This document shows, piece after piece, positions 10,490-33,355 of a stretch of 33,600 nt of DNA. Source of the stretch: a virus (taxonomy: Duplodnaviria; Caudoviricetes); the IMG/VR virus record IMGVR_UViG_3300024283_000026, positions 1 to 33,600 of that record. One strand, written 5' to 3'. A program made the position numbers and the translations under genes. Position 1 is the stretch's first letter, and the number at the start of each line of letters is the position of its first letter. The notes under the pieces were generated by a model, which was not told the DNA's origin, ran no database searches, and saw only the letters and a program-made list of their open reading frames with translations.

Positions 10490-10825
10490 ATGGCCAAAGG
10501 TCATCACAGTCATCATCACGGCCACCACAAGGCCTCCGGCGGGCGCACCGGAATGGTCGTCTCTGGCAATCCCGACGTGCTCAAGGAAGCGCACGGCAAG
10601 GAGTCCTACGACAAGGGCGACGAGCGCAAGAAGGGCGGGCGTGTCAAGCGCGCCCACGGCGGCCACATCGATGGGCACAAGTCCAAGCACCGGATGGATC
10701 GCCCCGGCCGCAAGCGCGGTGGGGCAGTCGGCGCTGATCGCTCTCCCCTGAGTTCGGCGCACCGCAGCAAGTCGGCGGAAACGACGCCTTCGCCGAAGGA
10801 CACCTACGGCGGGACGCCTGCGTGA
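10490..10825 (+). CDS. Small His/Lys/Arg/Gly-rich basic protein, possible internal core protein
   Basis: AAAGGAGG RBS. Four xxxGG motifs; highly basic. Confidence 0.75.
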   Translation: MAKGHHSHHHGHHKASGGRTGMVVSGNPDVLKEAHGKESYDKGDERKKGGRVKRAHGGHIDGHKSKHRMDRPGRKRGGAVGADRSPLSSAHRSKSAETTPSPKDTYGGTPA

Positions 10826-11031
10826 GTGTCCTGACCGCCAAGACGCGCAATGCGCTGCCGACGAAGGACTTCGCGGGGCCGGGTCGGAGTTACCCGATCC
10901 AGGACATGAGCCACGCACGCAATGCACTTTCGCGCGTGTCGCAATTCGGAACCGAGTCGCTTAAGGCGGCGGTTCGCGCCAAGGTTCACCGCAAGTTTCC
11001 CTCTCTGAAGCAGCATGACGAGGGCCGATAG
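10822..11031 (+). CDS. Small basic phage protein (DUF6582-like motif)
   Basis: RNALPTKDFAGPGRSYPIQDMSHARNALSR resembles a module I recall from phage head-gene regions. GTGA overlap. Confidence 0.65.
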   Translation: MSVLTAKTRNALPTKDFAGPGRSYPIQDMSHARNALSRVSQFGTESLKAAVRAKVHRKFPSLKQHDEGR

Positions 11032-11047
11032 TAGGAGACGTTCCTAG

Positions 11048-11689
11048 ATGGCTCTCCCCAATGTCCAAACCCTGACCCTCGCCGCGGCCAATTCGGCGCT
11101 CCTGTTTTCAACGGGTGCGCCGGGCACCACGTTCATGAGTTATACGTCGGTGTTGGCGACCACGCTGTTGGACGCGCAGCGCCGCATCGTCATCACATCA
11201 AGCGGTAATGATGCGGCCGTAACGGCTACGATTAAAGGCGTCAACGGCGCGGGCTTTCCAATCTCCGAAGCGTTTCTGCTCACTAACGGCGGCTCGACGT
11301 TCTCCAATCTCGACTTCAAGATCGTCACATCAATCGCGCTGTCGGCTTTGGCCGCAGCCAACCTCACGGTCGGCACCAATTCCACAGGCTCGACCATGTG
11401 GAACATCATGAACTGGCATGTGACGCCGACCAATATCGAGGCGTCCGGCGTTGTGACATCGACCTCGACCGCGGTGACGTGGCGCTGCGAATACACCTAT
11501 GATGACCCCAATAATCTGCCGTCAGGCCAATCCTATCCGCAGCCGTTCATTCATCCGACTCTCAACGGAACTACGGTGTCTCTGGATGGACCGATCAATG
11601 ATCCCGTGACGGCGGTGCGCTTCACGGTTACGTCCGGGACCGGCACAATCCGCGGCACCGTGATTCAAGCTGGACTTGCCAGCCCATGA
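11048..11689 (+). CDS. Virion structural protein, Thr/Ser-rich
   Basis: AGGAG RBS, beta-rich composition and operon context. Confidence 0.7.
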   Translation: MALPNVQTLTLAAANSALLFSTGAPGTTFMSYTSVLATTLLDAQRRIVITSSGNDAAVTATIKGVNGAGFPISEAFLLTNGGSTFSNLDFKIVTSIALSALAAANLTVGTNSTGSTMWNIMNWHVTPTNIEASGVVTSTSTAVTWRCEYTYDDPNNLPSGQSYPQPFIHPTLNGTTVSLDGPINDPVTAVRFTVTSGTGTIRGTVIQAGLASP

Positions 11690-12306
11690 CCGACATCATA
11701 GGGACGGCAGGACTCGGCGGGCTGCGTGCGGCGGCCAAACTCACAGAGGATGATATCCTCCTGATCCTCCGTGACCCGAATGGATTTGTCGCCAGATTGA
11801 GCGAACTCGGGAACCTCGTCGCCGCTGGCAAAAGCACACTCTCAGACCTTGGCCTTGCGTCCGACTTGCAAGAGGCGCTGACGCAGGCGCGATCCAATGT
11901 GGACGCGACCGGAAGTGCCAAGGATACCGCGCTGCGCGCCCTTGACGATGCGCGTAGAAATGCAGCGATCGTCCTCTCTGAAGCGGAGGCGTCGGCAAAA
12001 AAAGTGGTCGATGACGCCACCAAGGCGGCCTCTGTGGTTTCTGCGGGTGCCGCTAAGGCTAGGCGGGATGCCGATGCCTATGCGGAGCGCGTCAAGGCAG
12101 AGGTAGACGCCGCGCTCGAGCAGGCAAGGGAAATGCATCGTCTGGCGGCTGTCAAATCCGATCAGGCCAATAAAGTGCAGCAGCAAGCCGATGCGTTGCA
12201 TCAACAGGCGGCTGCCGGCATAGCTGCGGCTGAAAAGATGCGATCAGACCTCCTTGCCAAGGCCGCTCGTCTTCAGAAGGTGACCGCCGAACTTGCCGGT
12301 GCCTAA
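11686..12306 (+). CDS. Ala-rich coiled-coil protein
   Basis: ATGA overlap. Long helical Ala/Lys/Gln/Glu stretches. Confidence 0.7.
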   Translation: MTDIIGTAGLGGLRAAAKLTEDDILLILRDPNGFVARLSELGNLVAAGKSTLSDLGLASDLQEALTQARSNVDATGSAKDTALRALDDARRNAAIVLSEAEASAKKVVDDATKAASVVSAGAAKARRDADAYAERVKAEVDAALEQAREMHRLAAVKSDQANKVQQQADALHQQAAAGIAAAEKMRSDLLAKAARLQKVTAELAGA

Positions 12307-12672
12307 GTGACCGCGCCGGGCTCGCAGGGGACGAACACCGAACAGGGGCTAGTCGTTGGGGCAACTCGTATCTTCAACGGCGCCCCGAATGGCCTGTTAG
12401 CCTGCGATTCGACCGGAACCATTCTCGCCCTTGCCGCAGGAACGGCTTTTCTTGGCTGGACGATTCCGAATCCAAATAATTGGAATGATCCAGGCGTTGC
12501 CGGCGAGATTTCTTACGACGCCAACGGAAACTTTTACCTCTGCTACGCCAACAATGAATGGGCGAAGTTCTCCGGTCTGTTGATCTGGAACAACACCTCA
12601 TCTTTCGTCTTCGATTTCTCCAACTACACGACCTATAGCCAGTATATTCCGCTGCTGGTCGGGTTTGGATAG
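12307..12672 (+). CDS. Small fibre-associated structural protein
   Basis: PGVAGEISYDANGNFYLCYANNEW resembles a common phage fibre module. Aromatic C-terminal tail. Confidence 0.6.
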   Translation: MTAPGSQGTNTEQGLVVGATRIFNGAPNGLLACDSTGTILALAAGTAFLGWTIPNPNNWNDPGVAGEISYDANGNFYLCYANNEWAKFSGLLIWNNTSSFVFDFSNYTTYSQYIPLLVGFG

Positions 12673-12675
12673 GGG

Positions 12676-13491
12676 ATGGCCGACAACTTTACAGTCCTGA
12701 ACTCTGCTGGCGCGACGGTCACGTTCCGCTCGACCGACAACGGTTCTGGCGTTCAGGTCAATATGTCCATCCCTAGCAACCCGTCTGGGACGGCGTTGCT
12801 CGGGCAGTTTGCGATGGCGACCTCTATCCCGGTGGCCATAGCGTCGGATCAGTCGATCTTTACCGTCAAAGCCATCGAGGCCGGCACATGGACCGTGCAG
12901 GCGCTTCAATCCGGGGCACCGTGGTCGGAGAACATTACACAGGTCGGTGGGATCGCAATCGCACTCGGATCCGCCACTGGCGCTAGTTCTTTCCCCGTCG
13001 TTATTGCCAGCAACCAAGCGACGCTGACCACCGTTCTGGCGGCTGGAAGCCAAGCAGTCGGAACGGTCACCGCCATTCAGGGCGGTGTGTGGACGACGCA
13101 GGTCGCCGGCAGCCTCACGGTCACCAGCAATTCGACGCAACCTCTGGCCATCGCGTCGGTGTCCACCAACCCGCCGACTCCGGTTGCTGTCAAAAACAAC
13201 ACTGGGACGCTGGTCGGCATCAACGTCTACAACACCAATTCGAGTTATCCAGTCTTCCTGAAGATTTTCAATGTTACAGCTGGGAGTTTCACGTCTGGGT
13301 CCATCAATGCCGGCACGTTCTCTGCAACATTCTGTTGCGGAATTCCACCGGGGTCATCACGGGATGTAGCGTTGCCGCTTGGAACCAATCTGACGACGGC
13401 CATCGCCTATTACATCACCAAGTTTGCGGCAGCGAACGATACCACGTCGGTCGCGACAAACGACCTGGTCGGCATGATCACCTATTTTTAA
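12676..13491 (+). CDS. Virion structural/decoration protein
   Basis: Duplicated S(I/F)PV(A/V)IAS(D/N)Q segment. C-terminal beta domain VKNNTGTLVGINVYN...FLKIFN. Confidence 0.65.
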   Translation: MADNFTVLNSAGATVTFRSTDNGSGVQVNMSIPSNPSGTALLGQFAMATSIPVAIASDQSIFTVKAIEAGTWTVQALQSGAPWSENITQVGGIAIALGSATGASSFPVVIASNQATLTTVLAAGSQAVGTVTAIQGGVWTTQVAGSLTVTSNSTQPLAIASVSTNPPTPVAVKNNTGTLVGINVYNTNSSYPVFLKIFNVTAGSFTSGSINAGTFSATFCCGIPPGSSRDVALPLGTNLTTAIAYYITKFAAANDTTSVATNDLVGMITYF

Positions 13492-13499
13492 GGTCAGAG

Positions 13500-14165: not shown

Positions 14166-14171
14166 TCGGCC

Positions 14172-17017: not shown

Positions 17018-17187
17018 GCCCAGTGCGCCTCAGTGGAGCGAATCCAGTCCAGAAACGCCCGCGTCTGCCGCGCATCGAGATAGACGAAGCGTTCTTCAGC
17101 CTCCCCGCCGACGAAGCGGAGCGTGATCTCATGGTCGTCGTGCGAAACGTAAATGCCGCAGCCTAGAAAATACTCACTGGTTTTCAT
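16984..17187 (-). CDS. Small hypothetical phage protein (antisense)
   Basis: GAGGGG RBS 6 nt upstream of the ATG on the - strand. Fills the gap between + genes and has a globular-looking sequence. Confidence 0.65.
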   Translation of the reverse strand: MKTSEYFLGCGIYVSHDDHEITLRFVGGEAEERFVYLDARQTRAFLDWIRSTEAHWAQGRTNGVPAS

Positions 17188-17235
17188 GATGGTCCCCTCA
17201 TCAAATGCCGTGAACTTTAGAGCGGTGGGTAGGGC

Positions 17236-17949: not shown

Positions 17950-17952
17950 GCG

Positions 17953-18369: not shown

Positions 18370-18376
18370 GCATTAA

Positions 18377-20650
18377 ATGGTCGCCACTCCCGGCACAATC
18401 CCGGCGCTGCCGCCATATCAGCCAGATGCGCTCCCGTTTACCGGGGGCGAGGCGTTGGAGATCGCCAGTTCTGTCACGGCGACATCTGCTACATCCGGCA
18501 GGATATTCCTGACCGATCTTCCGAAGATCGCGGGTGCGCTCGGCAATCAGAATCCGACGACGGACGACCTGATCGCCTTCATGGACAAGTCCACGGGATT
18601 GCCATTCTCTTGCTCGATCGGCGCGCTTTCGATTCCGACCGGCAATATCCCTCCCGGCGGCGCGACCGGGCAAATCCTTGCCAAGAATTCCGGAACCAAT
18701 TTCGATGACAATTGGTTCGACATCACGTCGTTTGTGTCGGCCGGCACCAGTATCTTCCTCACCGGCTCGACGACGGTGGCGGTCGGGGTTGCGACCGGCG
18801 GCATCGGCTCAACCCAAATGGGTGGCCATGCCGTCCAGAATGCGGCTATCCGCCAAGGCGCGGCCCTGTCTGTCATTGGCGTCACCGGATCGGCCATCGC
18901 GGATGTGGCTGATATCGTCGCCTCTGGGGCAAACCAGGTTCTTCAGGTCAATGGCGGGGGCACCGGGCTCGTTTTCGGCGCGCTGTCCAGCACCCTTCTG
19001 CCAGGTCCATTCCAGGCCTCGTCGTTCACCACCAACCGCGTCCTGATCGGGAACGGGACATCCGCGATCCAGGTGTCTGGTGTCGCGACGGCGGCGCTGC
19101 CTTTGGTCGGCAACGGCACGACCTCGCCTCCCGGCTTTGCCGTGCTCACGGTTCCCGGCGGCGGGACCAATACCACGACGCTGACCGCGTTCGGTATCCC
19201 TTACGGCCAAGGCACCTCGACCATCGGTATCACCGCGGCCGGCACCACGGCTTGGCCGCTGGTCGGCAACGGGACCGCGATCGCGCCGGCCTTCGCGGTA
19301 CTTACGGTCCCCGGCGGGGGCACCGGCACCACCATCCTGACCGCGTTTGGGGTGCTCTACGGCAACGGCACCTCGACGGTCGGCATCTCCGCAACGGGTG
19401 CCACGGCGCTGCCCTTGGTGTCAGGAGGCCCCACAGCGGCGCCGGCCTATGCGGTTCTCTCGGTCTCGGGCGGCGGCACCAACACGACGATCCTGACCCA
19501 GAACGGCATCGTATTCGGGAACGGCACCAACACGGTCGGGATTACGGCGCAGGGCGCGGCCGGGACTTTCCTCGCCGGCAATGGCGGTACTCCCACATTC
19601 ACAACGGCGGTATCGAGCTTCACGACCGGATTTGGCCTCGCCGGAGCCACGATCGCGACCACGGGGCTGGTGGCAATTTCGACCTCGGCGCCGCCCGCCG
19701 GTTTGGAAATGCCGATCAATCTCGGGATTACCTGCTCGGTTGCTGGTGGCGCGCTGACGATCAGTCTCGTCCAGAACAGTTTGGCAACGGCGACCGCCGC
19801 CAATCCGATACTGATCCCGTTCCGGGATTCGACCCTGGCGACGGGAGACATCGCTTGGCGGCAGATCACCGGCACCCTGACCTACACGACGCCCACCAGC
19901 GGGGCGACGTTCGGTTCTGCCAATTCGGCACCCTTCCGGCTCTATCTCGTGCTGTTCGATGGCGGCGGCGTGCCGTTGCCGGCCATTATCAATTGCAGTT
20001 CTGGAACGGCCGGCGGCTCGAGCATCTATCCGCTCAATGAAGCGATCTTCGGCTCGTCGAGTGCGATCAGCGGTTCGGCGACAAGCTTGGGAACCTTTTA
20101 CACCAATCCTGGGACGACGGCGTCGTCTAAGCCTTTCCGCATCGTCGGTGTGCTCGACTATGGGGCTGGGTTGGCGACCGCGGGAACCTACGCCTCGACC
20201 CCGACCACGCTGCAAGTGTTCGGACCTGGAAACAAGAAGCCCGGCGACATCCTGCAGACGCAAATGTTCTTCACGACGGCGTCATTCACTGCACTCAATA
20301 CGACCACATTCACCTCAAGCATCGTGCTCGCCAGCATTACGCCGACCGCCAGTCCGAACCTCGTTGAAATCTCGGTCGGTGGCTCGCTGGCGCAGAGCAA
20401 CGCAACGGCTCAGTTCAGCCGTATGCAGATAGTGCGCGGCGCCACCCAGGTCGGTCCGATCATCAGCAGCCAGGGGATACTCGCAAACTCTCCTGTTCCC
20501 ATCTCGCTCCAGTGGATAGATGCGCCGGGAACCGCCGCGGCGACCACCTACACGGTGCAACTTGCCAGCAACCAAGGTTCTGCGATTTTCCCGACTAATC
20601 TGCAGACGGCCAGCGGCGCTTACATGTGGCTCAAGGAACTCTGCGCATGA
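18377..20650 (+). CDS. Tail fibre protein with internal repeats
   Basis: GGATGQILAKNSGTNFDDNW fibre motif, 52-aa repeats, Gly/Thr-rich. Confidence 0.8.
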   Translation: MVATPGTIPALPPYQPDALPFTGGEALEIASSVTATSATSGRIFLTDLPKIAGALGNQNPTTDDLIAFMDKSTGLPFSCSIGALSIPTGNIPPGGATGQILAKNSGTNFDDNWFDITSFVSAGTSIFLTGSTTVAVGVATGGIGSTQMGGHAVQNAAIRQGAALSVIGVTGSAIADVADIVASGANQVLQVNGGGTGLVFGALSSTLLPGPFQASSFTTNRVLIGNGTSAIQVSGVATAALPLVGNGTTSPPGFAVLTVPGGGTNTTTLTAFGIPYGQGTSTIGITAAGTTAWPLVGNGTAIAPAFAVLTVPGGGTGTTILTAFGVLYGNGTSTVGISATGATALPLVSGGPTAAPAYAVLSVSGGGTNTTILTQNGIVFGNGTNTVGITAQGAAGTFLAGNGGTPTFTTAVSSFTTGFGLAGATIATTGLVAISTSAPPAGLEMPINLGITCSVAGGALTISLVQNSLATATAANPILIPFRDSTLATGDIAWRQITGTLTYTTPTSGATFGSANSAPFRLYLVLFDGGGVPLPAIINCSSGTAGGSSIYPLNEAIFGSSSAISGSATSLGTFYTNPGTTASSKPFRIVGVLDYGAGLATAGTYASTPTTLQVFGPGNKKPGDILQTQMFFTTASFTALNTTTFTSSIVLASITPTASPNLVEISVGGSLAQSNATAQFSRMQIVRGATQVGPIISSQGILANSPVPISLQWIDAPGTAAATTYTVQLASNQGSAIFPTNLQTASGAYMWLKELCA
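19040..19600 (+). repeat. About 3.5 degenerate 156-bp (52-aa) coding repeats
   Basis: L(T/S)V(P/S)GGGT starts at 19145, 19301 and 19457, exactly 156 bp apart. Confidence 0.9.
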
Positions 20651-21360
20651 GCCTCACCTATTTGACCTATGTCGCCTCGCTGGTCAATCTCATGCCGGTC
20701 GATTCCGCGAGCGATCCGAGCTTCGTGACGGTGCTGCCCAACATCATCGATGACGCCGAGCAGAGGCTTTATCGCGAACTCGATCTGCTCAACACCAATA
20801 CGACACAGACCGGGACATTCACCACGGGGCAGCGGACGTTCGACCTTCCCTCGGCCAACGGCACAGTCGTCGTCGTCAACCGCATCAATGTGTGGACGCC
20901 GCTCGCGTCGTCATCGGCAAACGCAACGCGCAACCCACTGCTGCCGATCGGCAATGATGCCCTCGATGCGCTCTGGCCCAGCGCGACCGGCTCCAGCGTG
21001 CCGCAGTATTTCGGGATGGTGACGCAGACGACCATCTTGGTCGGGCCATGGCCTGATCAGGCTTATACGGTCGAGGTGACCGGCACGGTGCGGCCGGCGG
21101 CGATCTCGACCACCAATGCGACCACGCTGCTGTCTGTCTATTTCCCCGATCTGTTCATCGCCGCGTCGATGGTGTTCGCCTCCGGCTATATGAAGAATTT
21201 CGGGGCGCAGATGGACGATCCTAAAATGGCAGTGAGTTGGCAATCGCATTACGACCAACTCATGGCTTCGGCCCAGACCGAGGAACAGCGCAAGAGATTC
21301 AACATGGCGGGATGGTCAAGCAAGCAGCCGGCACCGCAGGCGACGCCGGAGAGGACGTGA
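20647..21360 (+). CDS. Second adaptor / tail tubular-like protein
   Basis: ATGA overlap (start 20647). NIIDDAEQRLYRELDL, GPWPDQAY and PDLFIAAS motifs. Confidence 0.65.
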   Translation: MSLTYLTYVASLVNLMPVDSASDPSFVTVLPNIIDDAEQRLYRELDLLNTNTTQTGTFTTGQRTFDLPSANGTVVVVNRINVWTPLASSSANATRNPLLPIGNDALDALWPSATGSSVPQYFGMVTQTTILVGPWPDQAYTVEVTGTVRPAAISTTNATTLLSVYFPDLFIAASMVFASGYMKNFGAQMDDPKMAVSWQSHYDQLMASAQTEEQRKRFNMAGWSSKQPAPQATPERT

Positions 21361-22345: not shown

Positions 22346-24391
22346 ATGAGTTACGGAGAGCTCACCCTCGTTCCCGGCGTTGATGTCGAACGGACGCCCA
22401 CCGTACAGGGCGCAGGATACAATCAGAGCCAATTTATCAGGTTCAAGGCCGGTCTCGCGCAAAAACTCGGCGGCTGGCAGAAATACTACCCCTTCGCTGT
22501 CGCGGGAGTGCCGCGCGAGCTCCATGCCTGGGAGGACTTGAACGGCACCAATCATCTCGGCGTCGGCACCACGACGCAGTTGGGCGTCATCACTTCGGGC
22601 TCGTTCAAGGATATCACCCCGCAGACGTTGACGACCAATCCGGCTCCGAATTTCACCACCACCATGGGATCGCCCTCGGTCACGGTGACGGACACGGGCA
22701 TCTTCAACGTCACCACCTATGATTCGGTTCTGTTCAATACCCCGGTATCGGTTGATGGAATTATCCTCTCCGGGCTCTATCCGATCGTTTCCATCATCTC
22801 GGCGACCTCGTACACGATCACGGCTGCGACCAATGGTGTGGCCGGCGTCACCAATGGCGGCGCGGTGCCGGTGTTCACCACCACGTCTGGCTCGGCGCCG
22901 GTCTCGGTGCTGCTCAATTCGCACGGCCTCGCGGTCGGCAATACCGCCGTGTTCCCGGCTTCCACTACAGGCAACGGAGTAACCATACAGGGCGGCTATA
23001 CGGTCTCGACCGTTGTCGACGCCAACAACTTCAAAATCACGCTGCCGAACCAGGCGAGTGCGGCCGGCTCGTTCGGGATGAACGGCGGCAATGTGCAGTT
23101 GGTCTATTACATCCAGATCGGGCCGCCGGCTGCGGGATCTGGATACGGTACTGGAGGCTACGGATCGGGAGGTTACGGCACCGGATCCGGCTCGAGTTCT
23201 GACCAGACCGGAACGGAAATCACGGCAACCGATTGGACCTCGGACAATTGGGGCCAACTCTATCTCGCCTGCCCGATGGGAGGGGGCGTCTATCTATACG
23301 ATCCCACGGGTGGATTCACCAATGCGGGGCTGATATCGACGGCGCCTCCCTTCAACGGCGGCATCTTCGTCTCAATGGCCGAGCAGATTTTGGTGTGTTG
23401 GGGCTCGACCGCGGCGGAAGGGCTGGGGATCGAGCAAGACCCGCTCTTGGTCAAGTGGTCGACGGTCGGCGACTTCACCGTGTTCACGCCGCTCGTCACT
23501 AACCAGGCCGGATCATATCGCATCCCGAATGGGTCCAAGTTGATGGCTGGTGCGGCTGTGGGGAACCAAAACCTGTTGTGGACCGACCTCGATTTGTGGG
23601 CCATGAACTACCAGGGGCCTCCATTTGTATTTGGATTCAACCGAATCGGAGTCGGTGCTGGGGCGATTTCGAGCCACGCCGCGCAGGCTTTGCGCGGGAA
23701 CGTCTACTGGATGGGGCCGACCAACTTCTACCAGTACAACACGAATGGCGTTTCCGTGATGCCGTGCCCGGTCTGGGACTTCGTGTTTCAGAACCTCAAT
23801 ACCGCCTATGCCGCCAATGTGCGGGCGCTGCCTAACACGCCTTTCGACGAGGCCGGCTGGGCTTTCCCCTCGCTGGCGAGCGTAAACGGTGAGAATGATT
23901 CCTATGTCAAGTTCAACTTGACGGAGCCCAATGGGCCCTGGGATTACGGATCATACGCGCGATCTGCTTGGACCGACCAGACTATTCTCGGTCCTCCGCT
24001 TGGAGCTACTCCTACGGGGGTTGTCTACCAGCACGAAACCTCGACGGATGCGGACGGAAGCCCGCTTGCCTACTCGTTCACCACGGGATACTTCTACATC
24101 TCGGAAGGCGAAGAGGTCGCGTTCGTCGATGAAATCCGACCCGACTTCAAGTTTGGCACCTACGCCGGATCGCAGACGGCGCAAGTGCAGATCACAGTAA
24201 ACGTCATCAATGATTATGCCTCGCAGACGCCGTTCTCCTATGGTCCGTATACGGTCAATCAGGCGAGTACGTTCTTCAATCTGCGGGCCAGGGGAACGCG
24301 GATGTCGTTTACGGTTGCGGGGAGTGACATCGGGAGTTTTGTGAGGCTAGGAAAAGTGCGCTATCGATACGCTGCGGATGGGAGGCGGTAA
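22346..24391 (+). CDS. Tail nozzle / packaged-DNA stabilisation protein (P22 gp10 / T7 gp12-like)
   Basis: About 680 aa, propeller-like repeats (DNWGQ, LVKWS, VYWMG), GYG repeat, DGRR C-terminus; position before the ejection genes. Confidence 0.7.
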   Translation: MSYGELTLVPGVDVERTPTVQGAGYNQSQFIRFKAGLAQKLGGWQKYYPFAVAGVPRELHAWEDLNGTNHLGVGTTTQLGVITSGSFKDITPQTLTTNPAPNFTTTMGSPSVTVTDTGIFNVTTYDSVLFNTPVSVDGIILSGLYPIVSIISATSYTITAATNGVAGVTNGGAVPVFTTTSGSAPVSVLLNSHGLAVGNTAVFPASTTGNGVTIQGGYTVSTVVDANNFKITLPNQASAAGSFGMNGGNVQLVYYIQIGPPAAGSGYGTGGYGSGGYGTGSGSSSDQTGTEITATDWTSDNWGQLYLACPMGGGVYLYDPTGGFTNAGLISTAPPFNGGIFVSMAEQILVCWGSTAAEGLGIEQDPLLVKWSTVGDFTVFTPLVTNQAGSYRIPNGSKLMAGAAVGNQNLLWTDLDLWAMNYQGPPFVFGFNRIGVGAGAISSHAAQALRGNVYWMGPTNFYQYNTNGVSVMPCPVWDFVFQNLNTAYAANVRALPNTPFDEAGWAFPSLASVNGENDSYVKFNLTEPNGPWDYGSYARSAWTDQTILGPPLGATPTGVVYQHETSTDADGSPLAYSFTTGYFYISEGEEVAFVDEIRPDFKFGTYAGSQTAQVQITVNVINDYASQTPFSYGPYTVNQASTFFNLRARGTRMSFTVAGSDIGSFVRLGKVRYRYAADGRR

Positions 24392-24613: not shown

Positions 24614-25387
24614 ATGCCCCTGATCCATTCGTCAAGCGCGCCGGCCTTCAAAACGAATGTCAAAACTCTCATGGGAGAAATCGGGAAATCTCCGCATGTG
24701 AAATCGCGCGAACAAGGACTCGCCATTGCCTATGCCATCAAACGCCGCGGCCACGCCGATGGCGGCGAGGTGACCGAGGACTCCATCACGGCGGATTTCG
24801 CCCGCCAGGCGGCGGCCGATCGCACACGGCGCGCTGTAACGCATCGGCCGGCCTTTGCCTTTGGTGGGCCGCCTGCACCCTGGTTCGTTCGCAATGAAGC
24901 GCGAGGGCTCGGTACGCATAGCGGCCCGATTCTTAGTGCGGTGGCGGGACGAACCGACCATCATCCGATGAGCGTGAAGGCGGGCAGCTACGTCTTCCCG
25001 AGTGAGCACGTTGCATCGATTGGTCAGGGCAATACTCTCGCCGGCATGAAGCAGCTCGGTGCCATGTTCAATTCCGGCCCCTACGGAACAAAGCCGATGG
25101 GGACCAAACACGGGATGGGGCCGCCGAAGCCTCCGCATCTGCGGCATATCGCAACGGGGGGCGCAAGCGACCATGGCGGCGCGCGGGGCCACGGGCATCC
25201 GGTGCCGATCGCGGCGGCCGGTGGTGAGTTCGTCGCCGAGCCAGACCAGATTTTGGATTGGCTGGAACGCAATGGTTTTCCGCGCGATCTCAAGTTTGGC
25301 CATCAAGCCCTCGATGCATGGGTCATGAGTCAGCGCAAGAAGCACATCAAGACTTTGCGTGGCTTGCCGGCTCCGGCGAAAGGATGA
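24614..25387 (+). CDS. Probable internal virion protein with GG motifs
   Basis: MPL...NV...QGLAIAY N-terminus. HADGG, FAFGG and IATGG motifs; GRTDH...GSYV and GGEFV modules. Confidence 0.7.
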   Translation: MPLIHSSSAPAFKTNVKTLMGEIGKSPHVKSREQGLAIAYAIKRRGHADGGEVTEDSITADFARQAAADRTRRAVTHRPAFAFGGPPAPWFVRNEARGLGTHSGPILSAVAGRTDHHPMSVKAGSYVFPSEHVASIGQGNTLAGMKQLGAMFNSGPYGTKPMGTKHGMGPPKPPHLRHIATGGASDHGGARGHGHPVPIAAAGGEFVAEPDQILDWLERNGFPRDLKFGHQALDAWVMSQRKKHIKTLRGLPAPAKG

Positions 25388-25653: not shown

Positions 25654-26178
25654 GTGACCGTCCGCATTGCGACGCCTGCCGATCTTCCCGAGTTGATGCG
25701 CCTGCTGCGGCTCATGCACGCCGAGGGCGGGTTGTTTCCCTTGGATGAGGGCCGCGCCAAGGCGATGTTCGAACTGACCTTTGACCGCAAGGGCGGGATC
25801 ATCGGAGTGCTTGGTGAGCCGGGAAAGCTCGCTGGGTTTATTGGTTTGCTGATCACGTCGTTCTGGTACACGCGATCGAGTCACCTCGAAGAGATCTTTA
25901 ACTTCATCGATCCCGACCATCGCAAGTCCAATCACGCGCGCACGCTGATCGATTTTGCCAAGTCGTGCGCCGATGAAATCGGGATTCCCCTGGTGATCGG
26001 TGTAATGACCAACAGGCGCGTGGTGGAGAAGGTGCGGCTCTATCGGCGTGCGCTCGGGTTCCCGGCCGGGGCCTATTTCGTCTACGGCGGCAAGTGGGTG
26101 AGCGACATGACCGAGAATCCGGAATTCTGGCGCACGCCATTCCCGGCTCATAGCGAGAAGCGCAAAGGGGCGGCCTGA
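25654..26178 (+). CDS. GNAT-fold protein preceding the ejection genes
   Basis: VRIATPADLPEL and FIDPDHRKSNHARTLIDFAK (GNAT motif A). The position matches GNAT-like genes of podoviruses. Confidence 0.8.
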   Translation: MTVRIATPADLPELMRLLRLMHAEGGLFPLDEGRAKAMFELTFDRKGGIIGVLGEPGKLAGFIGLLITSFWYTRSSHLEEIFNFIDPDHRKSNHARTLIDFAKSCADEIGIPLVIGVMTNRRVVEKVRLYRRALGFPAGAYFVYGGKWVSDMTENPEFWRTPFPAHSEKRKGAA

Positions 26179-29100
26179 TGTCGTTCGGCAAGGGCTCGAA
26201 TCAAAACACGACCACCACGACGCAGACGCCCGATCCGGCGGCGATGGCCGCCTATCGTGGCCTGCTCAATCGTGCCGCTGGCGTCGCAAATCTGCCCTAT
26301 CAAGCCTATGGCGGGGAAGGCGTCGCCCCGATCAATGCCCAGCAGTATGCGGGCATCGGTAATATCAATCAGAATGCCGGGTTTGCGCTGCCCTATATCC
26401 AGCAGGCGACACAATATGCCAATCAGGCGGCGCAGCCGATCACCGGGGCGCAGATCGCCGGCTTTCAAAGCCCGTACACGCAGCAAGTCGTCAACGCCAC
26501 CGAGGCGCAGTTCAATAATCAGAACGCGCAGCAGCAGCAGCAAGTGCTGGGCAACGCGATTGCTCAAGGCGCGCTCGGCGGCGATCGGACTGCAGTCGCC
26601 CAGGCCAATCTCGCCGGCCAGCAGCAGATGGCCGAGGCGCCGGTCATCGCCGGGCTCTACAATCAGGGCTACCAGAACGCCCAGCAGATGGCGCTGGCTC
26701 AACAGCAGGCGATGGCGCAAGGCGCGTACTCTCTCGGCAACCTCGGCGTTGCAGGGCAGAATGCGGCTCTCACGGGCGCCAATGCGCAAGTCGGTGCCGG
26801 CTCGCTCGAGCAACAAACGCAGAATGCCTTAGACCAGTACCTCTACGGCCAGTTCATGCAGGGCCAGGCGTTCCCGTACCAGCAGGCGCAATGGCTGGCG
26901 GGGATCGATACCGGGGTAGGTTCGCAGATGGGGGGCACGTCGACCACGACGGGGCCGCCGCCGAATCCGTGGAACACGGCTGCGGGGTTGGGGGTTGCGG
27001 CACTCGGGGCGATGGCGCCATCGAAAAGCGCAAGCGGGGGCCGCATCCGCGGCTTTGCGCCGGGCGGCATGGTGTCTCCGACGATGGCGCCTGCGATGGG
27101 CGGGGCACCGCAGCCCAACCCGATGGCGGGCTTTGCCGGCAATCCGACTCTCCAGCGGGTCGGGGATGCCCTGCAATCCGGCTTCGGCAACATGATGCAG
27201 CGGGTCGACTCCAATCCGCGCCTTGCGGGGCTGATGTCTGAGTTCCAGAAATACATGCCGCAATGGGGCGGCTGGGGCGGTCAGTCGGGGCCGCAAGCAG
27301 GGTTTGGCCAGATGATGGGCCGTCCCGGCTTTGACGATGGGGGCGAGGTCTCGGGATTCGGTGGCGTGCCTTATGGTGGGGCTGGCGGGTACATCCCCGG
27401 CGCGTTCCAAGGCCAGCATGGCAATACCATGCCGAAGCCGCCGGGGGCGCCGTCAAGTGGCGGATCGTCTGGGGCTGGCGGAATCCCTGGCTTGAATGCC
27501 AACGCGCTCGGTGCTGCTGGGAAGGGGCTTGGTGATATTGGAAGTTCGCTCTATTCCGGCTTCGGTGAGATGTTCCCCGAGGCGGGCGCGTATCTTGAAA
27601 ATCCGTCTTTGATTGGGGAGGGTCTGTCAGATGTTGGCGGCGCTTTGATGGGGGGCCTGGGTGACCTCGGCGGCGCGATGGCTGGCGCATTCGGTGGGGG
27701 CGAGGCGGCGGCTGACCTTTTGCCTCTGCTCTTGTTGGCGAAACGCGGTGGTCGCATCAATGGCAAGCGCGCGGGGTTTGCTCCTGGTGGCGAAGTCGAT
27801 TTGTCGAACGCATATCCCCTCGGCGACATCGACCCGAACGACGCATCCACCAACAATTTCGGATTCAATTTCAATCCGGTACGTACCGACGCCAACACCG
27901 CCTATCCGGAGCCGACGGCGGACGTGCCGATGCCTCGTTCGCGCCCGACATTGGGCGATGTCACGGCACCGTCTGACAATGGCATCTACATGCCGGTTCC
28001 GCGGGAACCTGAACCGACCCCGATCGTTGGTGCCGCCCGTGTCGGTCCTCCAGAGGAGGAAAAGCAATCCGGCCTGTTCGGCGGCTGGGGCCTCTCCGAT
28101 GCCGCCCGCACCGGATTGATCACAGCGGGCCTCGGCATGATGGCCTCTCGGTCCCCCAATCTATGGAATGCGATCGGGGAAGGCGGCCTTGCCGGGATGC
28201 ACGCCTATTCCGGGGAGAAGAAACAGGCGGCTTCGATCGAGGAGGCGCGGAAGCGGCTGGAACAGCATGCCGATGAGGTGAGTAAGAAACTGGCGTTGGA
28301 GAGCAAAAAGATTTCCGATGCGGAACAGGCGCGGCAGGATACGCAGACTTACCGAACGAAGATGCTGGAACAAGGCAAACTTGGTCCGGGCCAACACATG
28401 GTTGATGGCCGGATCGAGAATGTCCCCGGCTATGCTGAAGCCCTTCAGGCGGCAGAGGCAGCCAAGGCCGCCGGCAAAGGCGCAGCGAGCCAAATGAGCC
28501 CGGAAGCCAAGGAGATCATGGCTCGGCAGATGATCGCGGGCAACTTTACTGGATACAACAGCCTCGGCAGGACGGCGCAGGGCTTGGCCGTCAGGAACGA
28601 ACTCAACAATATGGCGACGGAAATTGCCATGAAGGAGAACGGCTTCACCCCCGCTCAGGCCGCCGACCACCTCAACAGGCAGAAGCAGGAATTTTCCGCC
28701 CGTCAGATCGGGCTCAACACCGAAGCGCGCACCGCTGGCCAGCGCGAGACGAACCTTAACCTTATTCTGCGCATGACCGATGCTGCTATCCCGGCAGCGC
28801 TTGAGGCATCGGAAAAGGTTGCCAGGACCGGGTGGGTGCCAATCAACAGGATTATTCAGAAGGGTGAGGTTATCACCAGCAACACCGAGCTTGCGCAATT
28901 CGGAATGGCGAATCTGCAGCTTGCGGAAGCTTGGGCGAGGGCCATGAACCCGACCGGCGTGATGCGTGAGAGCGACCGCGATATGGCGCTGAATTATCTC
29001 AATACGGCGACCAGTAAAGAAACTTATGCTGCGCTGGTGCATCAACTGCAGAAGCAGATCACGCGCGAGCGCGACTCCATCCGCGGCGTGAACCCGGCGA

Positions 29101-29213
29101 CACCGATCAATCCGAATGCCCCATCTCCCGCCCCCGGTGGGGGAACCGTGGCCGCCGCTCCCGATCGTGACGCCATTGAAGCGGAAATGCGTCGCAGAGG
29201 GTTGACCCCATGA
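26178..29213 (+). CDS. Internal virion / DNA ejection protein
   Basis: TGATG overlap. Gln/Ala/Gly-rich N-terminus (SPYTQQVV, GALGGDR), hydrophobic Gly-rich segments, coiled coil and five GG motifs. Confidence 0.75.
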   Translation: MSFGKGSNQNTTTTTQTPDPAAMAAYRGLLNRAAGVANLPYQAYGGEGVAPINAQQYAGIGNINQNAGFALPYIQQATQYANQAAQPITGAQIAGFQSPYTQQVVNATEAQFNNQNAQQQQQVLGNAIAQGALGGDRTAVAQANLAGQQQMAEAPVIAGLYNQGYQNAQQMALAQQQAMAQGAYSLGNLGVAGQNAALTGANAQVGAGSLEQQTQNALDQYLYGQFMQGQAFPYQQAQWLAGIDTGVGSQMGGTSTTTGPPPNPWNTAAGLGVAALGAMAPSKSASGGRIRGFAPGGMVSPTMAPAMGGAPQPNPMAGFAGNPTLQRVGDALQSGFGNMMQRVDSNPRLAGLMSEFQKYMPQWGGWGGQSGPQAGFGQMMGRPGFDDGGEVSGFGGVPYGGAGGYIPGAFQGQHGNTMPKPPGAPSSGGSSGAGGIPGLNANALGAAGKGLGDIGSSLYSGFGEMFPEAGAYLENPSLIGEGLSDVGGALMGGLGDLGGAMAGAFGGGEAAADLLPLLLLAKRGGRINGKRAGFAPGGEVDLSNAYPLGDIDPNDASTNNFGFNFNPVRTDANTAYPEPTADVPMPRSRPTLGDVTAPSDNGIYMPVPREPEPTPIVGAARVGPPEEEKQSGLFGGWGLSDAARTGLITAGLGMMASRSPNLWNAIGEGGLAGMHAYSGEKKQAASIEEARKRLEQHADEVSKKLALESKKISDAEQARQDTQTYRTKMLEQGKLGPGQHMVDGRIENVPGYAEALQAAEAAKAAGKGAASQMSPEAKEIMARQMIAGNFTGYNSLGRTAQGLAVRNELNNMATEIAMKENGFTPAQAADHLNRQKQEFSARQIGLNTEARTAGQRETNLNLILRMTDAAIPAALEASEKVARTGWVPINRIIQKGEVITSNTELAQFGMANLQLAEAWARAMNPTGVMRESDRDMALNYLNTATSKETYAALVHQLQKQITRERDSIRGVNPATPINPNAPSPAPGGGTVAAAPDRDAIEAEMRRRGLTP

Positions 29214-32200
29214 CCGACCTCTCGTCCATGTCGGATGATGACTTGCGGGCTGCTCATGCCGCAAGTTCTCTATCCCATATGTCCGACGACGAGTTGAGGG
29301 CAGCGCATGCGGCGTCGGCTCGCTCCAGTCCCAGCGCATTTGAATCCGGTATGCTCGGCGCGGTCGACACCGCCGGATTTGGTCTTGGTCCTGCGATTTC
29401 CGGCCTGACGGCAGCCTCGGGCATGACTCCGACTCGTGGTTATGAGAACCAGCCCCACCTGGACCCAAATCCGTTGATGCCGCTGGTCGGCGCCGGCCGC
29501 ATGATCAACGAAAAGCTGATCAAGCCCCTCACGGGAGGTCAGCCCAATGACGAGGTAGGCCAAGCATACGATCGCGGCCGACAGTCGGCACTCGATGCCA
29601 TCAATCAGGCGAAACAGGCGCATCCGAATGCCTACCTCGCCGGTCAGGTTGGCGGCGCCTTCGCTGCGCCCGGATTTGGCGTCGCTGGCGGGGCAACGAC
29701 GGCCGCACGTATTGCCCGAGGGGCTGGCGCTGGCGCTATTGGTGGCGGCCTGTACGGGGCCGGTGAGGCCATAGGTCAGGGTGAGTCTCCTGGGGAGACC
29801 GCGCTTGCGGCCGGGCGCGGGGCGCTTACGGGTGCCCCCTTGGGGGCGGCGGGGGCAGGGGTGGCCGAAGCCTTGGCCCCGGTCGCTGGCCGTGTTGCCA
29901 ATGTGATCCGTGGCATTCGCGATCCGGAGGAGGAGGCTTCCAGGCGGGTTGCCACTGCCATGACGCGGGATTGGCAGTCCCAAGGCCCGTCGCTTACCGC
30001 AGAGGAGATCGCCGCGGCTAATGCGGCTGGTCTGCCGCGATCCGTGATCGATGCCGGAGGCGAGACAACACGGGCCTTGGCGCGGTCTGCCGCGAATACC
30101 TCTCCGGAGGCGCGGGCTGCGCTTGCGGAAATGGCCCGCGATCGGTTCGAAGACCAGTCCCCCCGCATTGCGGCTTTCATCCGCGATATAACCGGTGGGG
30201 CGAATGCAGGGGCCGACTTGGAGACCCTGCAGGCTGCGGCCCGCCGTGCCAACCAGCCCGCTTATAAGGCTGCCTATGCGGCCGGTTCTGGCGGCGTCTG
30301 GACTCCCGAACTTGAGCGCTTGGCCGGCGCACCTGCGGTTCGGCAGGCAATGCAGGATGCTGTCCAGCGCGGGCGCGACCGTGCGGTGAGTGAAGGTCTT
30401 GGGGCGTTCAATCCCGGCGTTACCTTCGAAAACGGGGTGATGCAGTTCGGCCGCGGTAAGGGGGCACCCCCCTATCCGGATATCCAGTTCTGGGATTACG
30501 TCCAGCGGGAGTTGCGAGACAGCGCGAACGTCGCCAAGCGATCCGGCCGCAATGAGGAATACGGTGCGATCACTGGTTTGCGCCGCCGGCTGCTTGGTGA
30601 ACTTGACACACAGGTTCCAGAATTCGCCACGGCACGCAACGGAGCGGCCCAATTCTTGGGTGCCGACAATGCCTTGGAGGCTGGCGAAAAGTTCGTGAAC
30701 TTCCGCCCCGGCGGCCGCAACGAGATGGATTTCAGGAAGACATACGCCCGCATGTCCCAACCGGAACGGGAGCTTTTCGCCCGGGGCTATGCTTCAAAGT
30801 TAGCGTCTAACATCGAGGCGGTTGCCGACAACCGAAGCGTCCTCAATGCGGCGTTTGTCAACAGCGGACCGGCTCGACAGCGCACCTTGCTCGCTCTCGG
30901 TCCCCAGCGTGCCGCGCAACTCGAGGCCCTGTTGCGGGCGGAAAAGATTACGGACCTTGCGCGCCAGAACATGGGCAATTCCTCGACGGCGCGCCAACTC
31001 GTCGAGCTGGGCCTCGCTGGCGGCTCGGAAGGCGTCCTCAAACAGAACTTCAACCTCTCTCATATCCTGGTTGAGGCGTTCCGGGGGGCAGTTCGTCACG
31101 GCGCGCAGGTAATCGACGGCCGCGTGGCCGAACGAGTGGGCCAAATGCTCGCTTCCAGCGACCCCAATGTGCTTCGACAGGGCCTGCAGCTCGTCGCTAG
31201 GCAGCCTCGGCTGCTCAACGCGCTGCGGCAAGCCAGCAACCGGCTTGGGTACGCGGCGACTGCGGCGACACAACCGCAACAGGGTTTCAAGCATGGCGGT
31301 GCCGTTGATAGCACAACGGAAAGGAAGCCTCCACCCCTCTCCACCCGCAAGCAATCCAACTATTCCCCGACCGCCGGAACCAAGGCCCGTCACTGCGCCA
31401 ACTGCGCGCATTACCTGAAGCCGAACAAGTGCTCGGAGGTGGGTGGCTTTATTGCGGCTCGCGGCTTATGCGAGTGGTATCGCGGCCAAAGGGCTGCCGG
31501 CGGTCGCGTCGATGCCGGCAACATCAACCATGCTCCGACAGAGGCCCAGAAAGAGGCCGGCAACTACGCCAAGGATCACATTCGCGTCCATGGCCTGGAC
31601 ATCGCGATCGAGAATGCCAAAGGTGCAGAACGGTCAGGCGCCGGCAAGGACGGCAAGCCATGGTCCGTCAAGATGCCAGCGCATTACGGCTACATCAAGC
31701 GCACCGAGGGCGCGGACGGCGATCACGTCGATGTCTATCTCGGGCCGCACACAAAGTCGCGGAAGGTGTTCGTTGTAGACCAACGAGATGCAGACACCAG
31801 CGACTTCGACGAACACAAGGTCATGATGGGGTTCGGCACGCAGAAGCAGGCACGCGAAGCCTATCATAGAGGGTTTTCGGATGGCCGCGGCAGGGAACGC
31901 CTAGGCCACATGACCGAGATGGGCGTCGATGAATTCAAGGATTGGCTCAAGCACGGCAATCAATCCAGGCCCGCGTTTGCGGATGGCGGTGCGCTGTCGG
32001 ATGACGACATCGCCGCCCAAGATGCCGCCGAAGCCGCCGCAGCCCGCGTCCGCGCTCCCTATGCCAAGGCCAATGCCCGCGCGAGTGGCCTTCCCGATGT
32101 TGTGAACTACTTCGGCAACAAGCTCGCATCCGCCGTCACAGCGCCAAGGGATGCGCTCTATGGCACCATGCAGGTCACCGACCCGGAAACCGGAATGCCC

Positions 32201-33355
32201 ACCAGGGAGGCCATGGAACGGGGGCAGGGGGTGGCCAATATGGCGATGACGGGAGGCATCCCGTTTGCGCAGAAAGGCGCGGCCGGGGTAATGGGCGGCA
32301 GATTAAAACAGCCCACGATTGAGCATGGAAAGCCAGTGGAGGTTGAAGCATACAAGGGCTCGCATCCCTACGCTAACGAGCCTGATCGGGATTGGAAAGG
32401 CAATGTCATCAAAGATTATGGACCGCGCCGTCAATTGATGGCCGAAGAGCCGTTTAAAAGCAGCGCCGGTCATGCTGGATTCTTTTCGTCCGATCCTGCG
32501 GTTGCAAGCCGATTTGCTGAGGCCCTCTCACAGGAGGGCGCAGTGTTCCCAGTGAAGATAAACTTCAATAACCCCTATGTGATTGATGGAAAGGGGCAAC
32601 CTGCCGCTTCTTGGCAGTGGGACACTATTGCCAAGCGGCACGGCATGATGAATGAGTTAGAGGAATATCAGGCCGCTCTCAAAGACCCCCGTTATGATGG
32701 GGTTGTGATAAAGAATACGAAGGATGAAGGGGATGTTTATATTCCAAAGGCTCATTCGCAATTGAAACCAGGACTATTTCCTGATGAGCCAGCCAGTGCC
32801 CTCGCCGACCAATTGCCTGAGCGCAAGGGCCTCAAAGTCTCCGACGACGGCATCCGCATCAACATCGCCCCTCACGACATGCAGGTTCCCGAATGGGGCA
32901 AGGGCTTGTCCTGGGGCCTCACCGCCTATCGCAGCAAGGTCAATGGCGAAGACGCCATTCATGTCCGGGATGCGCGGCTGCCCCCAGAAATGCGGGGCCA
33001 GGGCCATGGCACCGCAATGTACGAACATGCGGCAGACCTTGCGGCGAAGGAAGGCAAGCCGCTGCTCTCCGATGGCGCCGTGACGCAAGATGCCGCCAAC
33101 CGCTGGATGGCGCTCAATCGCGCCGGCTACAACGTGCAGATGGCGCCGGACAAGGTGTTCCGGCCGGGGCCGCCGGAAGCGCCACATCTGGGGCGGTTTG
33201 AAACGCCGGACGGATCGCCAGTGTTTCGGGTCGAACCGGCTGCCGCTCCCGGCATCACCGCCTATCACATCCCCAAGCGCGCCCGCGGGGGCTCCATCAA
33301 GTTCAAACCCGACTGGTGGATCAAGGCCAAGGCCAGACGTGTGGCCTTCGCCTGA
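29210..33355 (+). CDS. Large internal virion polyvalent protein (helical ejection core, then HiPIP-like, pyrophosphatase-like, ART-like and GNAT domains)
   Basis: ATGA overlap. Motifs CANC..C..VGGFI...GLC, PTEAQKEAGNY..HYGYI..DGDHVDV..FDEHK, AYKGS..GFFSSD..NPY..YDGVVI and RGQGHG. Confidence 0.8.
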   Translation: MTDLSSMSDDDLRAAHAASSLSHMSDDELRAAHAASARSSPSAFESGMLGAVDTAGFGLGPAISGLTAASGMTPTRGYENQPHLDPNPLMPLVGAGRMINEKLIKPLTGGQPNDEVGQAYDRGRQSALDAINQAKQAHPNAYLAGQVGGAFAAPGFGVAGGATTAARIARGAGAGAIGGGLYGAGEAIGQGESPGETALAAGRGALTGAPLGAAGAGVAEALAPVAGRVANVIRGIRDPEEEASRRVATAMTRDWQSQGPSLTAEEIAAANAAGLPRSVIDAGGETTRALARSAANTSPEARAALAEMARDRFEDQSPRIAAFIRDITGGANAGADLETLQAAARRANQPAYKAAYAAGSGGVWTPELERLAGAPAVRQAMQDAVQRGRDRAVSEGLGAFNPGVTFENGVMQFGRGKGAPPYPDIQFWDYVQRELRDSANVAKRSGRNEEYGAITGLRRRLLGELDTQVPEFATARNGAAQFLGADNALEAGEKFVNFRPGGRNEMDFRKTYARMSQPERELFARGYASKLASNIEAVADNRSVLNAAFVNSGPARQRTLLALGPQRAAQLEALLRAEKITDLARQNMGNSSTARQLVELGLAGGSEGVLKQNFNLSHILVEAFRGAVRHGAQVIDGRVAERVGQMLASSDPNVLRQGLQLVARQPRLLNALRQASNRLGYAATAATQPQQGFKHGGAVDSTTERKPPPLSTRKQSNYSPTAGTKARHCANCAHYLKPNKCSEVGGFIAARGLCEWYRGQRAAGGRVDAGNINHAPTEAQKEAGNYAKDHIRVHGLDIAIENAKGAERSGAGKDGKPWSVKMPAHYGYIKRTEGADGDHVDVYLGPHTKSRKVFVVDQRDADTSDFDEHKVMMGFGTQKQAREAYHRGFSDGRGRERLGHMTEMGVDEFKDWLKHGNQSRPAFADGGALSDDDIAAQDAAEAAAARVRAPYAKANARASGLPDVVNYFGNKLASAVTAPRDALYGTMQVTDPETGMPTREAMERGQGVANMAMTGGIPFAQKGAAGVMGGRLKQPTIEHGKPVEVEAYKGSHPYANEPDRDWKGNVIKDYGPRRQLMAEEPFKSSAGHAGFFSSDPAVASRFAEALSQEGAVFPVKINFNNPYVIDGKGQPAASWQWDTIAKRHGMMNELEEYQAALKDPRYDGVVIKNTKDEGDVYIPKAHSQLKPGLFPDEPASALADQLPERKGLKVSDDGIRINIAPHDMQVPEWGKGLSWGLTAYRSKVNGEDAIHVRDARLPPEMRGQGHGTAMYEHAADLAAKEGKPLLSDGAVTQDAANRWMALNRAGYNVQMAPDKVFRPGPPEAPHLGRFETPDGSPVFRVEPAAAPGITAYHIPKRARGGSIKFKPDWWIKAKARRVAFA
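29219..29313 (+). repeat. Two tandem 17-aa repeats LS(S/H)MSDD(D/E)LRAAHAA
   Basis: Seen in the translation, with a 51-nt period and many synonymous differences. Confidence 0.8.

What the first reader, a model, noticed from the sequence alone, without database searches (positions are those of the whole stretch)
10529..33298. Recurrent x-[A/K/D]-x-G-G-x-[V/I/L] tag marks predicted internal proteins and their domain borders: candidate cargo-loading or polyprotein-processing system
About 16 copies in four proteins, a few lacking the final hydrophobic residue. 10490 gene: four copies. 24614 gene: HADGGEV, FAFGGPP, IATGGAS. 26178 gene: SASGGRI, FAPGGMV, FDDGGEV, AKRGGRI, FAPGGEV. 29210 gene: FKHGGAV (31286), RAAGGRV (31490), FADGGAL (31976), RARGGSI (33278). 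In the last protein they fall between the ejection core, the HiPIP-like domain, the pyrophosphatase-like domain, the ART/GNAT block and the C-terminus. The codons differ, so conservation is at the protein level. Known: adenovirus and ASFV core proteins mature by cleavage after GG, and FAxGG motifs occur in tape-measure proteins. Inference: the tag directs capsid loading or proteolytic release of swappable effector modules injected with the DNA. No protease is visible in the window.
Basis: partly seen in the sequence, partly recalled or inferred. Interest (0 to 1): 0.85.

Follow-up and report, generated by a model that had tools for sequence, protein, structure and literature searches.

The report
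Phage cargo cut-site tag, T5-like
A seven-residue Gly-Gly peptide recurs at the module joints of four proteins that this short-tailed phage likely packs in its head, and because it matches the mapped cut site of the phage T5 tail ruler protein it is likely a maturation cut site, cut by an enzyme that is still unidentified.

Summary
The motif is real: all 16 copies are where stated. In 18 near-complete relatives it is confined to orthologues of the four proteins and a fifth, post-portal family, and is at or below chance in external structural proteins, portal and scaffold. It marks junctions: 12 of 14 InPase junctions carry it (0.66 expected); effector cassettes and a self-cleaving S74 domain are inserted at it. 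Best reading: a dock-and-cut maturation site, x|A-x-G-G-x-V (0.6); an uncut docking handle remains possible (0.25). No known protease was found. The 24614 protein is a tandem of a tag-plus-module unit shared with siphophage tape measure proteins and present in 19 of 19 genomes; it is my candidate catalyst or receptor (untested; no fold match). Cleavage in this phage is not shown. This scan has reported the tag, and the T5 match, on other DNA before.

The parts
10490..10825 (+). 111-aa basic protein (32% K+R+H) after the capsid genes, with four tags (10529, 10625, 10649, 10709); orthologue with tags in 19 of 19 genomes
24614..25387 (+). 257-aa protein: N-terminal helical hairpin, tags at 24752, 24854, 25148, then two tag-plus-module units; candidate receptor or catalyst
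24923..25069 (+). Module A (residues 104-152; invariant G104, G112, R113, D115, G137, N140): hairpin plus two helices in the model
25199..25363 (+). Module B (residues 196-250; invariant A202, G204, E205, H230, D234)
26178..29213 (+). 1011-aa ejection polyprotein; residues 5-280 match PHROG 4287 (DNA ejection protein) and the stand-alone HTVC023P gp81; tags at 27027, 27054, 27330, 27738, 27777 (two doublets and one single)
29210..33355 (+). 1381-aa polyvalent ejection protein; core 95-667 (PHROG 5880), tags at 31286, 31490, 31976, 33278
31385..31474 (+). Cys-rich HiPIP-like stretch between tags 1 and 2 (weak hit only)
   Evidence: NF041615 E 0.028
31541..31951 (+). InPase domain between tags 2 and 3
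   Evidence: PF18823 E 2e-53
32459..32767 (+). ART-PolyVal domain between tags 3 and 4
   Evidence: PF18760 E 4e-7
8257..9171 (+). Major capsid protein (gpT-like), no tag; context
22346..24391 (+). Nozzle-like virion protein, no strict tag; with the SU10-type adaptor at 20647-21360 it indicates a short-tailed phage; context

Best explanation
The peptide [R/F/Y]-[A/K]-x-G-G-x-[V/I/P] recurs in four proteins of this phage and sits at their module joints, and it is likely a virion maturation site, predicted to be cut just before the Ala as in T5 pb2, that would separate the modules of proteins likely packed in the head. Steps: (1) shown: conserved at protein level, confined to five families, placed at junctions; (2) inferred from T5 and crAss001: the cut lies between P1 (R/Y/F) and A/K, so the recognised residues A-x-G-G-x-V stay on the downstream piece; (3) inferred: the tag is first bound (recruiting cargo into the prohead) and then cut, which would split the 26178 polyprotein into 29 and 51 kDa ejection proteins, free the InPase (18 kDa) and ART block (47 kDa) from the 72 kDa core of 29210, and shred the basic 10490 and post-portal proteins as a sacrificial core; (4) speculative: the recognising or catalytic unit is the tag-plus-module fold of the 24614 protein, acting in trans here and in cis in tape measure proteins.
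For: Enrichment and confinement in 18 relatives. T5 pb2 residues 1126-1133 read PRAEGGMM and the cut was located by MS after R1127 (PMC10038345, passage); it is the only one of five GG in pb2 that fits the motif. crAss001 gp45 carries about eight such tags, none of the other four cargo proteins shows one (gp50 read in part), and its modelled portal-bound domain 425-552 (PMC10172136) begins exactly at the Ala of NAFGGWL and ends 7 residues before the next tag. InPase junctions: 12 of 14 tagged within 30 aa, 0.66 expected; the tag lies on whichever side joins the rest of the chain. 5 of 16 orthologues of 26178 carry a Peptidase_S74 self-cleaving domain at the first tag junction. The N-half of 26178 is a separate protein in HTVC023P (gp81, E 1e-22) ending where the first tag starts. 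4 of 18 orthologues of 24614 carry 400-1500-aa cassettes bounded by tags. The module is in 19 of 19 genomes, and tags and module co-occur in HTVC023P-like loci (10 of 10 with module; 17 tags vs 4.9) while CRP-902-like loci lack both (0 of 35; 7 vs 23.4).
Against: No cleavage has been observed in this phage or its clade. The only mapped cut is in a tail protein of a distant siphophage, and the T5 module could not be linked to the 24614 module by profile. No known protease among 67 cluster representatives plus the window's proteins; the module model matches no solved fold. Tags at extreme C-termini (RW gp066, last 7 residues; G016_094, last 8) and doublets 9-13 residues apart would release only tiny peptides. 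P1 mixes basic and aromatic residues (R 49%, Y 15, F 13, K 6). The crAss001 authors read gp45 as one continuous chain, and the tag there is ordered on the portal, which fits docking equally. In lambda gpH a cut at the tag gives about 12.5 kDa against the '~14 kDa' cited in PMC12617516. 2 of 14 InPase junctions lack a tag. The co-occurrence test is two clades, not 45 independent points.
Confidence: 0.6

Rival explanations
1. The tag is an uncut docking handle: it binds the portal wing, the capsid interior or the 24614 module and fastens cargo inside the prohead; multi-tag proteins act as multivalent organisers.
For: In crAss001 the segment AFGGWL is the ordered start of the portal-bound domain. 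Terminal and doublet tags make sense as handles. The post-portal family has 2-8 tags in Pro- and Gly-rich linkers in 18 of 18 relatives. No protease recognised.
Against: T5 pb2 is cut inside the motif, in a tail that contains neither portal nor capsid. A fused chain needs one handle, yet tags follow junctions (12 of 14) on either side of InPase. S74 domains sit at the same junction.
Confidence: 0.25
2. One reading: a virus-encoded protease cuts after Gly-Gly, as in adenovirus or ASFV core proteins (that rule is recalled, not from a call).
For: GG is the invariant core of the motif; junction placement fits any cut site.
Against: The mapped T5 cut is two residues upstream of GG; the crAss001 model includes the residues before GG; a strongly conserved V/I three residues after the first G is not part of the recalled adenovirus rule; no cysteine protease hit among conserved genes.
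Confidence: 0.05
3. The repeats are nucleic-acid-binding RGG-like elements that condense or chaperone the genome.
For: The 10490 protein is 32% K+R+H and its tags read R-K-R-G-G.
Against: Tags in ejection proteins are often acidic (FDDGGEV, FADGGAL); the conserved A and V/I are not needed for RGG binding; the T5 match.
Confidence: 0.05
4. The tags are only recombination seams or flexible linkers left by module shuffling, with no function of their own.
For: Cassettes are exchanged at the tags.
Against: Codons differ between copies; non-Gly positions are conserved; many tags lie in small proteins with no cassettes.
Confidence: 0.05

Closest known systems
Maturation cut of phage T5 tape measure protein pb2 after R1127 (PMC10038345; passages read, supplement not readable)
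   Same: Same motif and register, R|A-E-G-G-M-M; in a protein that is ejected; followed by a short Gly/Glu-containing hairpin-like stretch.
   Different: One site, in a tail-lumen protein of a siphophage; here 16 sites in four proteins of a short-tailed phage. The paper does not describe a motif in the passages read. Homology of the T5 downstream stretch to the 24614 module was not shown.
Tape measure protein C-terminal module (Douge gp16, PDB 8zdo; JBD30 gp46, 8rk3; lambda gpH)
   Same: Tag followed by G-x-G...D...GE[FY]V module; 24614 profile hits RW gp066 and MinM2 gp22 (E 1e-7 to 1e-12 at Z 1000), whose module hits Douge TMP (E 2e-10) and 273 phage records, mostly TMPs among the 45 listed. 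Lambda and RW modules fall on the same positions of five PHROG profiles, at weak E-values.
   Different: There the module is in cis in a tail protein; here it is a tandem in a small stand-alone protein and most tags are free of it. For lambda, site and catalyst are stated to be unknown (PMC12617516, passage).
crAss001 cargo protein C1, gp45 (PMC10172136; passages read)
   Same: Ejection-type cargo with repeated x-A-x-G-G tags; ordered domain starts at a tag's Ala.
   Different: All tags in one protein; PF25725 does not hit the window, hhalign not significant, no fold match; only an Atlas feature lead at 0.86.
Polyvalent proteins of phages (PMC5512222; passages read)
   Same: InPase, ART-PolyVal, LPD23 domains on virion-packaged proteins; processing proposed.
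   Different: That paper proposes zincin metallopeptidase domains as the processing agents; the passages read name no junction motif, and the 29210 protein has no metallopeptidase hit.
T4 capsid targeting sequence and gp21 processing (recalled, no call)
   Same: A short signal that loads internal proteins and is then cut off; core proteins shredded.
   Different: T4's signal is N-terminal and cut by a recognisable prohead protease; here tags are mostly internal (9 of 240 in the first 15 residues, 5 in the last 25).

Membership tests
T5 pb2-type x|AxGG site | P1 R/F/Y, then A, x, G, G, x, hydrophobic | tested here: met
T5 pb2-type x|AxGG site | Located in ejected or lumen/internal virion proteins | tested here: inconclusive
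   PHROG 4287 hit and gene order for 26178 and 29210; no virion proteomics; 10490 unassigned
T5 pb2-type x|AxGG site | Cleavage observed in virions | not testable with these tools
   needs N-terminomics
T5 pb2-type x|AxGG site | Downstream module homologous to that of pb2C | tested here: inconclusive
   no shared significant PHROG between T5 stretch and 24614 or RW modules
Tape-measure tag-plus-module unit | Profile similarity of 24614 to TMP module | tested here: met
   two-step: searches then 86, 116, 131; direct PHROG TMP hits weak (E 0.01-0.2)
Adenovirus/ASFV GG processing (definition recalled) | Cut after Gly-Gly | not testable with these tools
   only analogue found is cut before AxGG
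Adenovirus/ASFV GG processing (definition recalled) | Virus-encoded cysteine protease | tested here: inconclusive
   no Pfam or PHROG protease hit in one representative each of 67 and 19 proteins; remote families could be missed
Phage polyvalent proteins | Several effector domains (InPase, ART-PolyVal) in one chain in the virion gene module | tested here: met
Phage polyvalent proteins | Zincin metallopeptidase domain | tested here: inconclusive
   none by Pfam in 29210; weak DUF6782 hits in 2 of 21 relatives' proteins
T4-type capsid targeting sequence (definition recalled) | N-terminal position | tested here: not met
   9 of 240 tags within the first 15 residues
crAss cargo protein 1 domain (PF25725) | Profile or fold match | tested here: inconclusive

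The most novel reading that the evidence does not exclude
The tag-plus-module unit is an undescribed small protease (or protease-like receptor) used across tailed phages: in cis it cuts tape measure proteins such as T5 pb2 and lambda gpH, whose catalyst is unknown, and in this podophage family a tandem form (24614; Asp kept in module A, Glu in module B, suggesting one composite site) loads and cuts all tagged cargo, making a programmable system that releases swappable effectors for injection.
Probability: 0.27. Interest if true: 0.9.

Novelty: new variant of a known kind. Interest (0 to 1): 0.7.

Why it matters
If the tag is cut, one short rule would tie together tape measure processing in siphophages, cargo processing in crAss-like phages and effector delivery in a large family of uncultured podophages, and it gives exact predictions: lambda gpH cut at F733|A734, JBD30 gp46 cut near residue 1019 rather than the predicted 1066, crAss001 gp45 present as fragments. 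PMC12617516 states that neither the site nor the catalyst of the lambda cut is known, so this makes an old question testable with existing phages. A short loading or release tag would also be a tool for phage-based protein delivery into bacteria.

Tried and rejected
Protein search for loci with the 29210 core found none. G000 is only the window, so the upstream genes were read from relatives. PDB sequence searches with 24614, A1 and A3 gave nothing credible. Fold searches with both models gave no match (best Z 3.2 for the compact model); the viral library was not searched. In both models the tags have lower confidence than the module core, so docking in cis is not shown. The extended module profile did not reach lambda gpH or crAss gp45 above shuffled controls; hhalign to lambda gave pairwise E 0.004-0.015 with low probability. 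T5 homologue search returned only 90-100% identical stretches. Cluster 0, in the slot between scaffold and decoration genes, was considered as a protease: no family hit and it has homologues in the module-negative CRP-902; an Atlas look-up for it gave no answer. Depletion of the motif in untagged proteins is not claimed as avoidance, because module-negative loci show it too. Literature searches for the motif found no paper (also 103, 114 for TMP cut sites); the library lacks most subscription papers. Left out: 3 of 21 records (75-90% complete) were not fetched; 102 of 147 nozzle loci had under 7 kb downstream and were dropped.

Full report
Context. The window is a 33.6-kb virus record, 42% complete, all genes on the + strand: sugar and methyltransferase genes, a gpT-like capsid gene (8257), fibres, an SU10-type adaptor, a nozzle-like gene (22346), then 24614, a GNAT, and two large genes 26178 and 29210. 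This is the layout of a short-tailed phage whose last genes encode ejection proteins; 26178 hits PHROG 4287 'DNA ejection protein' (E 4e-8) and 29210 carries InPase and ART-PolyVal domains. Capsid relatives at 87-99% identity are common in IMG/VR (184 matches, 80 kept); cultured relatives at 32-39% include HTVC023P, CRP-902, MinM2, Caulobacter RW and Alcaligenes QDWS535.

Observation. All 16 copies are present. Because the four proteins were picked on the motif, I tested it on relatives: 21 long records were chosen from the 80 loci, 18 of them fetched, and genes called with my own script. A stricter pattern that I set after seeing the data, [FYR][AK]xGGx[VI], gives 91, 65, 0, 0 and 7 (5.8 expected; five of the seven are in two further members of the tagged families). 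Over 240 instances: R/Y/F before, A 75% or K 25%, x, G, G, x, V 71%, P 12%, I 12%; so FAFGGPP is a real variant. Tagged members were found in 18 of 18, 19 of 19, 16 of 19, 18 of 19 and 18 of 18 genomes for the five families.

Placement. Among 11 InPase-bearing proteins of relatives, 14 domain borders join at least 40 further residues; 12 have a tag within 30 residues (0.66 expected), and the tag is upstream when InPase is C-terminal and downstream when it is N-terminal; 8 borders are free ends. Four of 18 orthologues of the 257-aa 24614 protein are 634-1721 aa long because cassettes (LPD23, ART-like, metallopeptidase-like by weak hits; three of the four were scanned) are inserted between tags. 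In 26178 orthologues tags come as doublets, and 5 of 16 have a Peptidase_S74 domain starting at the first tag junction; S74 domains cut themselves off at their N-terminal border (established knowledge, recalled). The N-half of 26178 matches HTVC023P gp81, a separate 278-aa protein that ends where the first tag begins; gp82 has a tag at residue 25 and gp83 one 12 residues from its end.

The module. The C-terminal part of 24614 is two copies of a unit, tag then hairpin and two helices (compact orthologue model pLDDT 85, pTM 0.77; tags less confident than the core). It is present in 19 of 19 genomes (only the second copy was recovered in G011). Its profile finds single-copy versions in the same gene slot of RW and MinM2 (E 1e-7 to 1e-12 at Z 1000; HTVC023P gp79 only weakly until these were added). 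The RW unit matches the tape measure protein of mycobacteriophage Douge (E 2e-10), weakly JBD30's (E 0.25), and 273 phage records. Lambda gpH has tags at 733 and 778 around a similar stretch; the link is weak by hhalign and not significant by hmmsearch but falls on the same positions as RW in five PHROG profiles. Single-copy versions keep both an Asp and the Glu of GE[FY]V; in the tandem, copy A keeps the Asp (D115) and copy B the Glu (E205), which suggests, but does not show, one composite site. No solved fold matches. Of 147 nozzle loci, 45 had 7 kb or more downstream: 10 HTVC023P-like ones all have the module and excess tags (17 vs 4.9), 35 CRP-902-like ones have neither (7 vs 23.4); this is two clades, and the cultured records (read in part, one strand) split the same way: module in HTVC023P, RW, MinM2; none in CRP-902, QDWS535.

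The cut. T5 pb2 reads P-R-A-E-G-G-M-M at 1126-1133. PMC10038345 (passages; supplement with the MS data not readable) places the maturation cut after R1127. This is the motif, cut before the Ala. crAss001 gp45 has about eight tags and its modelled portal-bound domain is 425-552 (PMC10172136, passages; supplements listed, not read), which starts at the Ala of N-A-F-G-G-W-L; the authors read the chain as continuous, and a start near a border tag has a fair chance of landing there anyway. For lambda, PMC12617516 (passages) cites a ~14-kDa fragment and says site and catalyst are unknown; a cut at the first tag gives about 12.5 kDa, a loose fit. PMC11445458 (passages) only predicts a JBD30 cut at 1066; the tag is near 1020. 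PMC10713586 (passages) infers a cut in the T5-like DT57C. PMC5512222 (passages) proposes metallopeptidase self-processing of polyvalent proteins.

Mechanism. Shown: a protein-level motif confined to five families and placed at junctions. Inferred: these proteins are head-internal; the motif is cut at x|A-x-G-G; it is bound before it is cut, which would explain terminal and doublet tags as removable handles. Predicted pieces are listed. Speculative: the 24614 module is the receptor or catalyst. No recognised protease was found among one representative each of 67 conserved clusters by Pfam and 19 proteins by PHROGs; a host protease is not excluded. Against cleavage stand the lack of any direct observation in this clade, the mixed P1, tags that would release 6-13 residues, and the ordered tag on the crAss001 portal. 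I give 0.6 to cutting in the T5 register, 0.25 to an uncut handle.

Novelty. Searches for the motif in the paper library found nothing, but the library lacks most subscription journals. This scan has reported the tag three times on other DNA, twice with the T5 match; I reached that match, and the crAss001 lead came. What this window adds is the junction statistics, the S74 and cassette insertions, and the tandem module as candidate partner. I rate it a new variant of a known kind (virion maturation and targeting signals), interest 0.7.

Noticed in passing
L118:9073-9831 and orthologues (after the portal gene, outside the window): A 134-396-aa Pro/Gly/Lys-rich protein with 2-8 tags in 18 of 18 relatives; shares an extended H-R-x-D-R-P-x-R-x-x-G-G-x-V stretch with the 10490 family and ends in a conserved Gly-rich segment.
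   Followed up: partly
L091:5572-6018 (-): A phage-encoded GroES-like gene sits between portal and scaffold genes in 18 of 18 relatives and in the four cultured relatives whose head region was read.
   Followed up: no
L138:7721-9161: Cluster 0: usually two tandem paralogues of an unannotated 200-240-aa protein after the scaffold gene, with remote homologues in HTVC023P and CRP-902.
   Followed up: partly
window 3-7448: Sugar-modification cassette inside the late region: HldE-like kinase/transferase, SIS isomerase, split E1/transketolase-like pair, radical SAM-SPASM, two methyltransferases, glycosyltransferase-like gene; variable among relatives; possibly for virion glycosylation.
   Followed up: no
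window 8257-9171: Capsid protein is 87-99% identical across 80 loci while other genes diverge strongly.
   Followed up: no
window 32276-32300: A second linker (GAAGVMGGRL) precedes the ART block; a similar linker precedes LPD23 cassettes in relatives G002, G017, G018.
   Followed up: no
window 24614-24760: The N-terminal 46 residues of the 24614 protein match PHROG 2423, a family of 52-position profile length, and model as a helical hairpin that ends at the first tag.
   Followed up: no
window 25654-26178: A GNAT gene lies between the 24614 gene and the ejection genes in 19 of 19 genomes, and in CRP-902 and QDWS535; an N-terminal acetylation role on cargo is possible but untested.
   Followed up: no
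window 29213-29330: The 29210 protein starts with two near-identical short repeats (SMSDDDLRAAHAASS-like).
   Followed up: no
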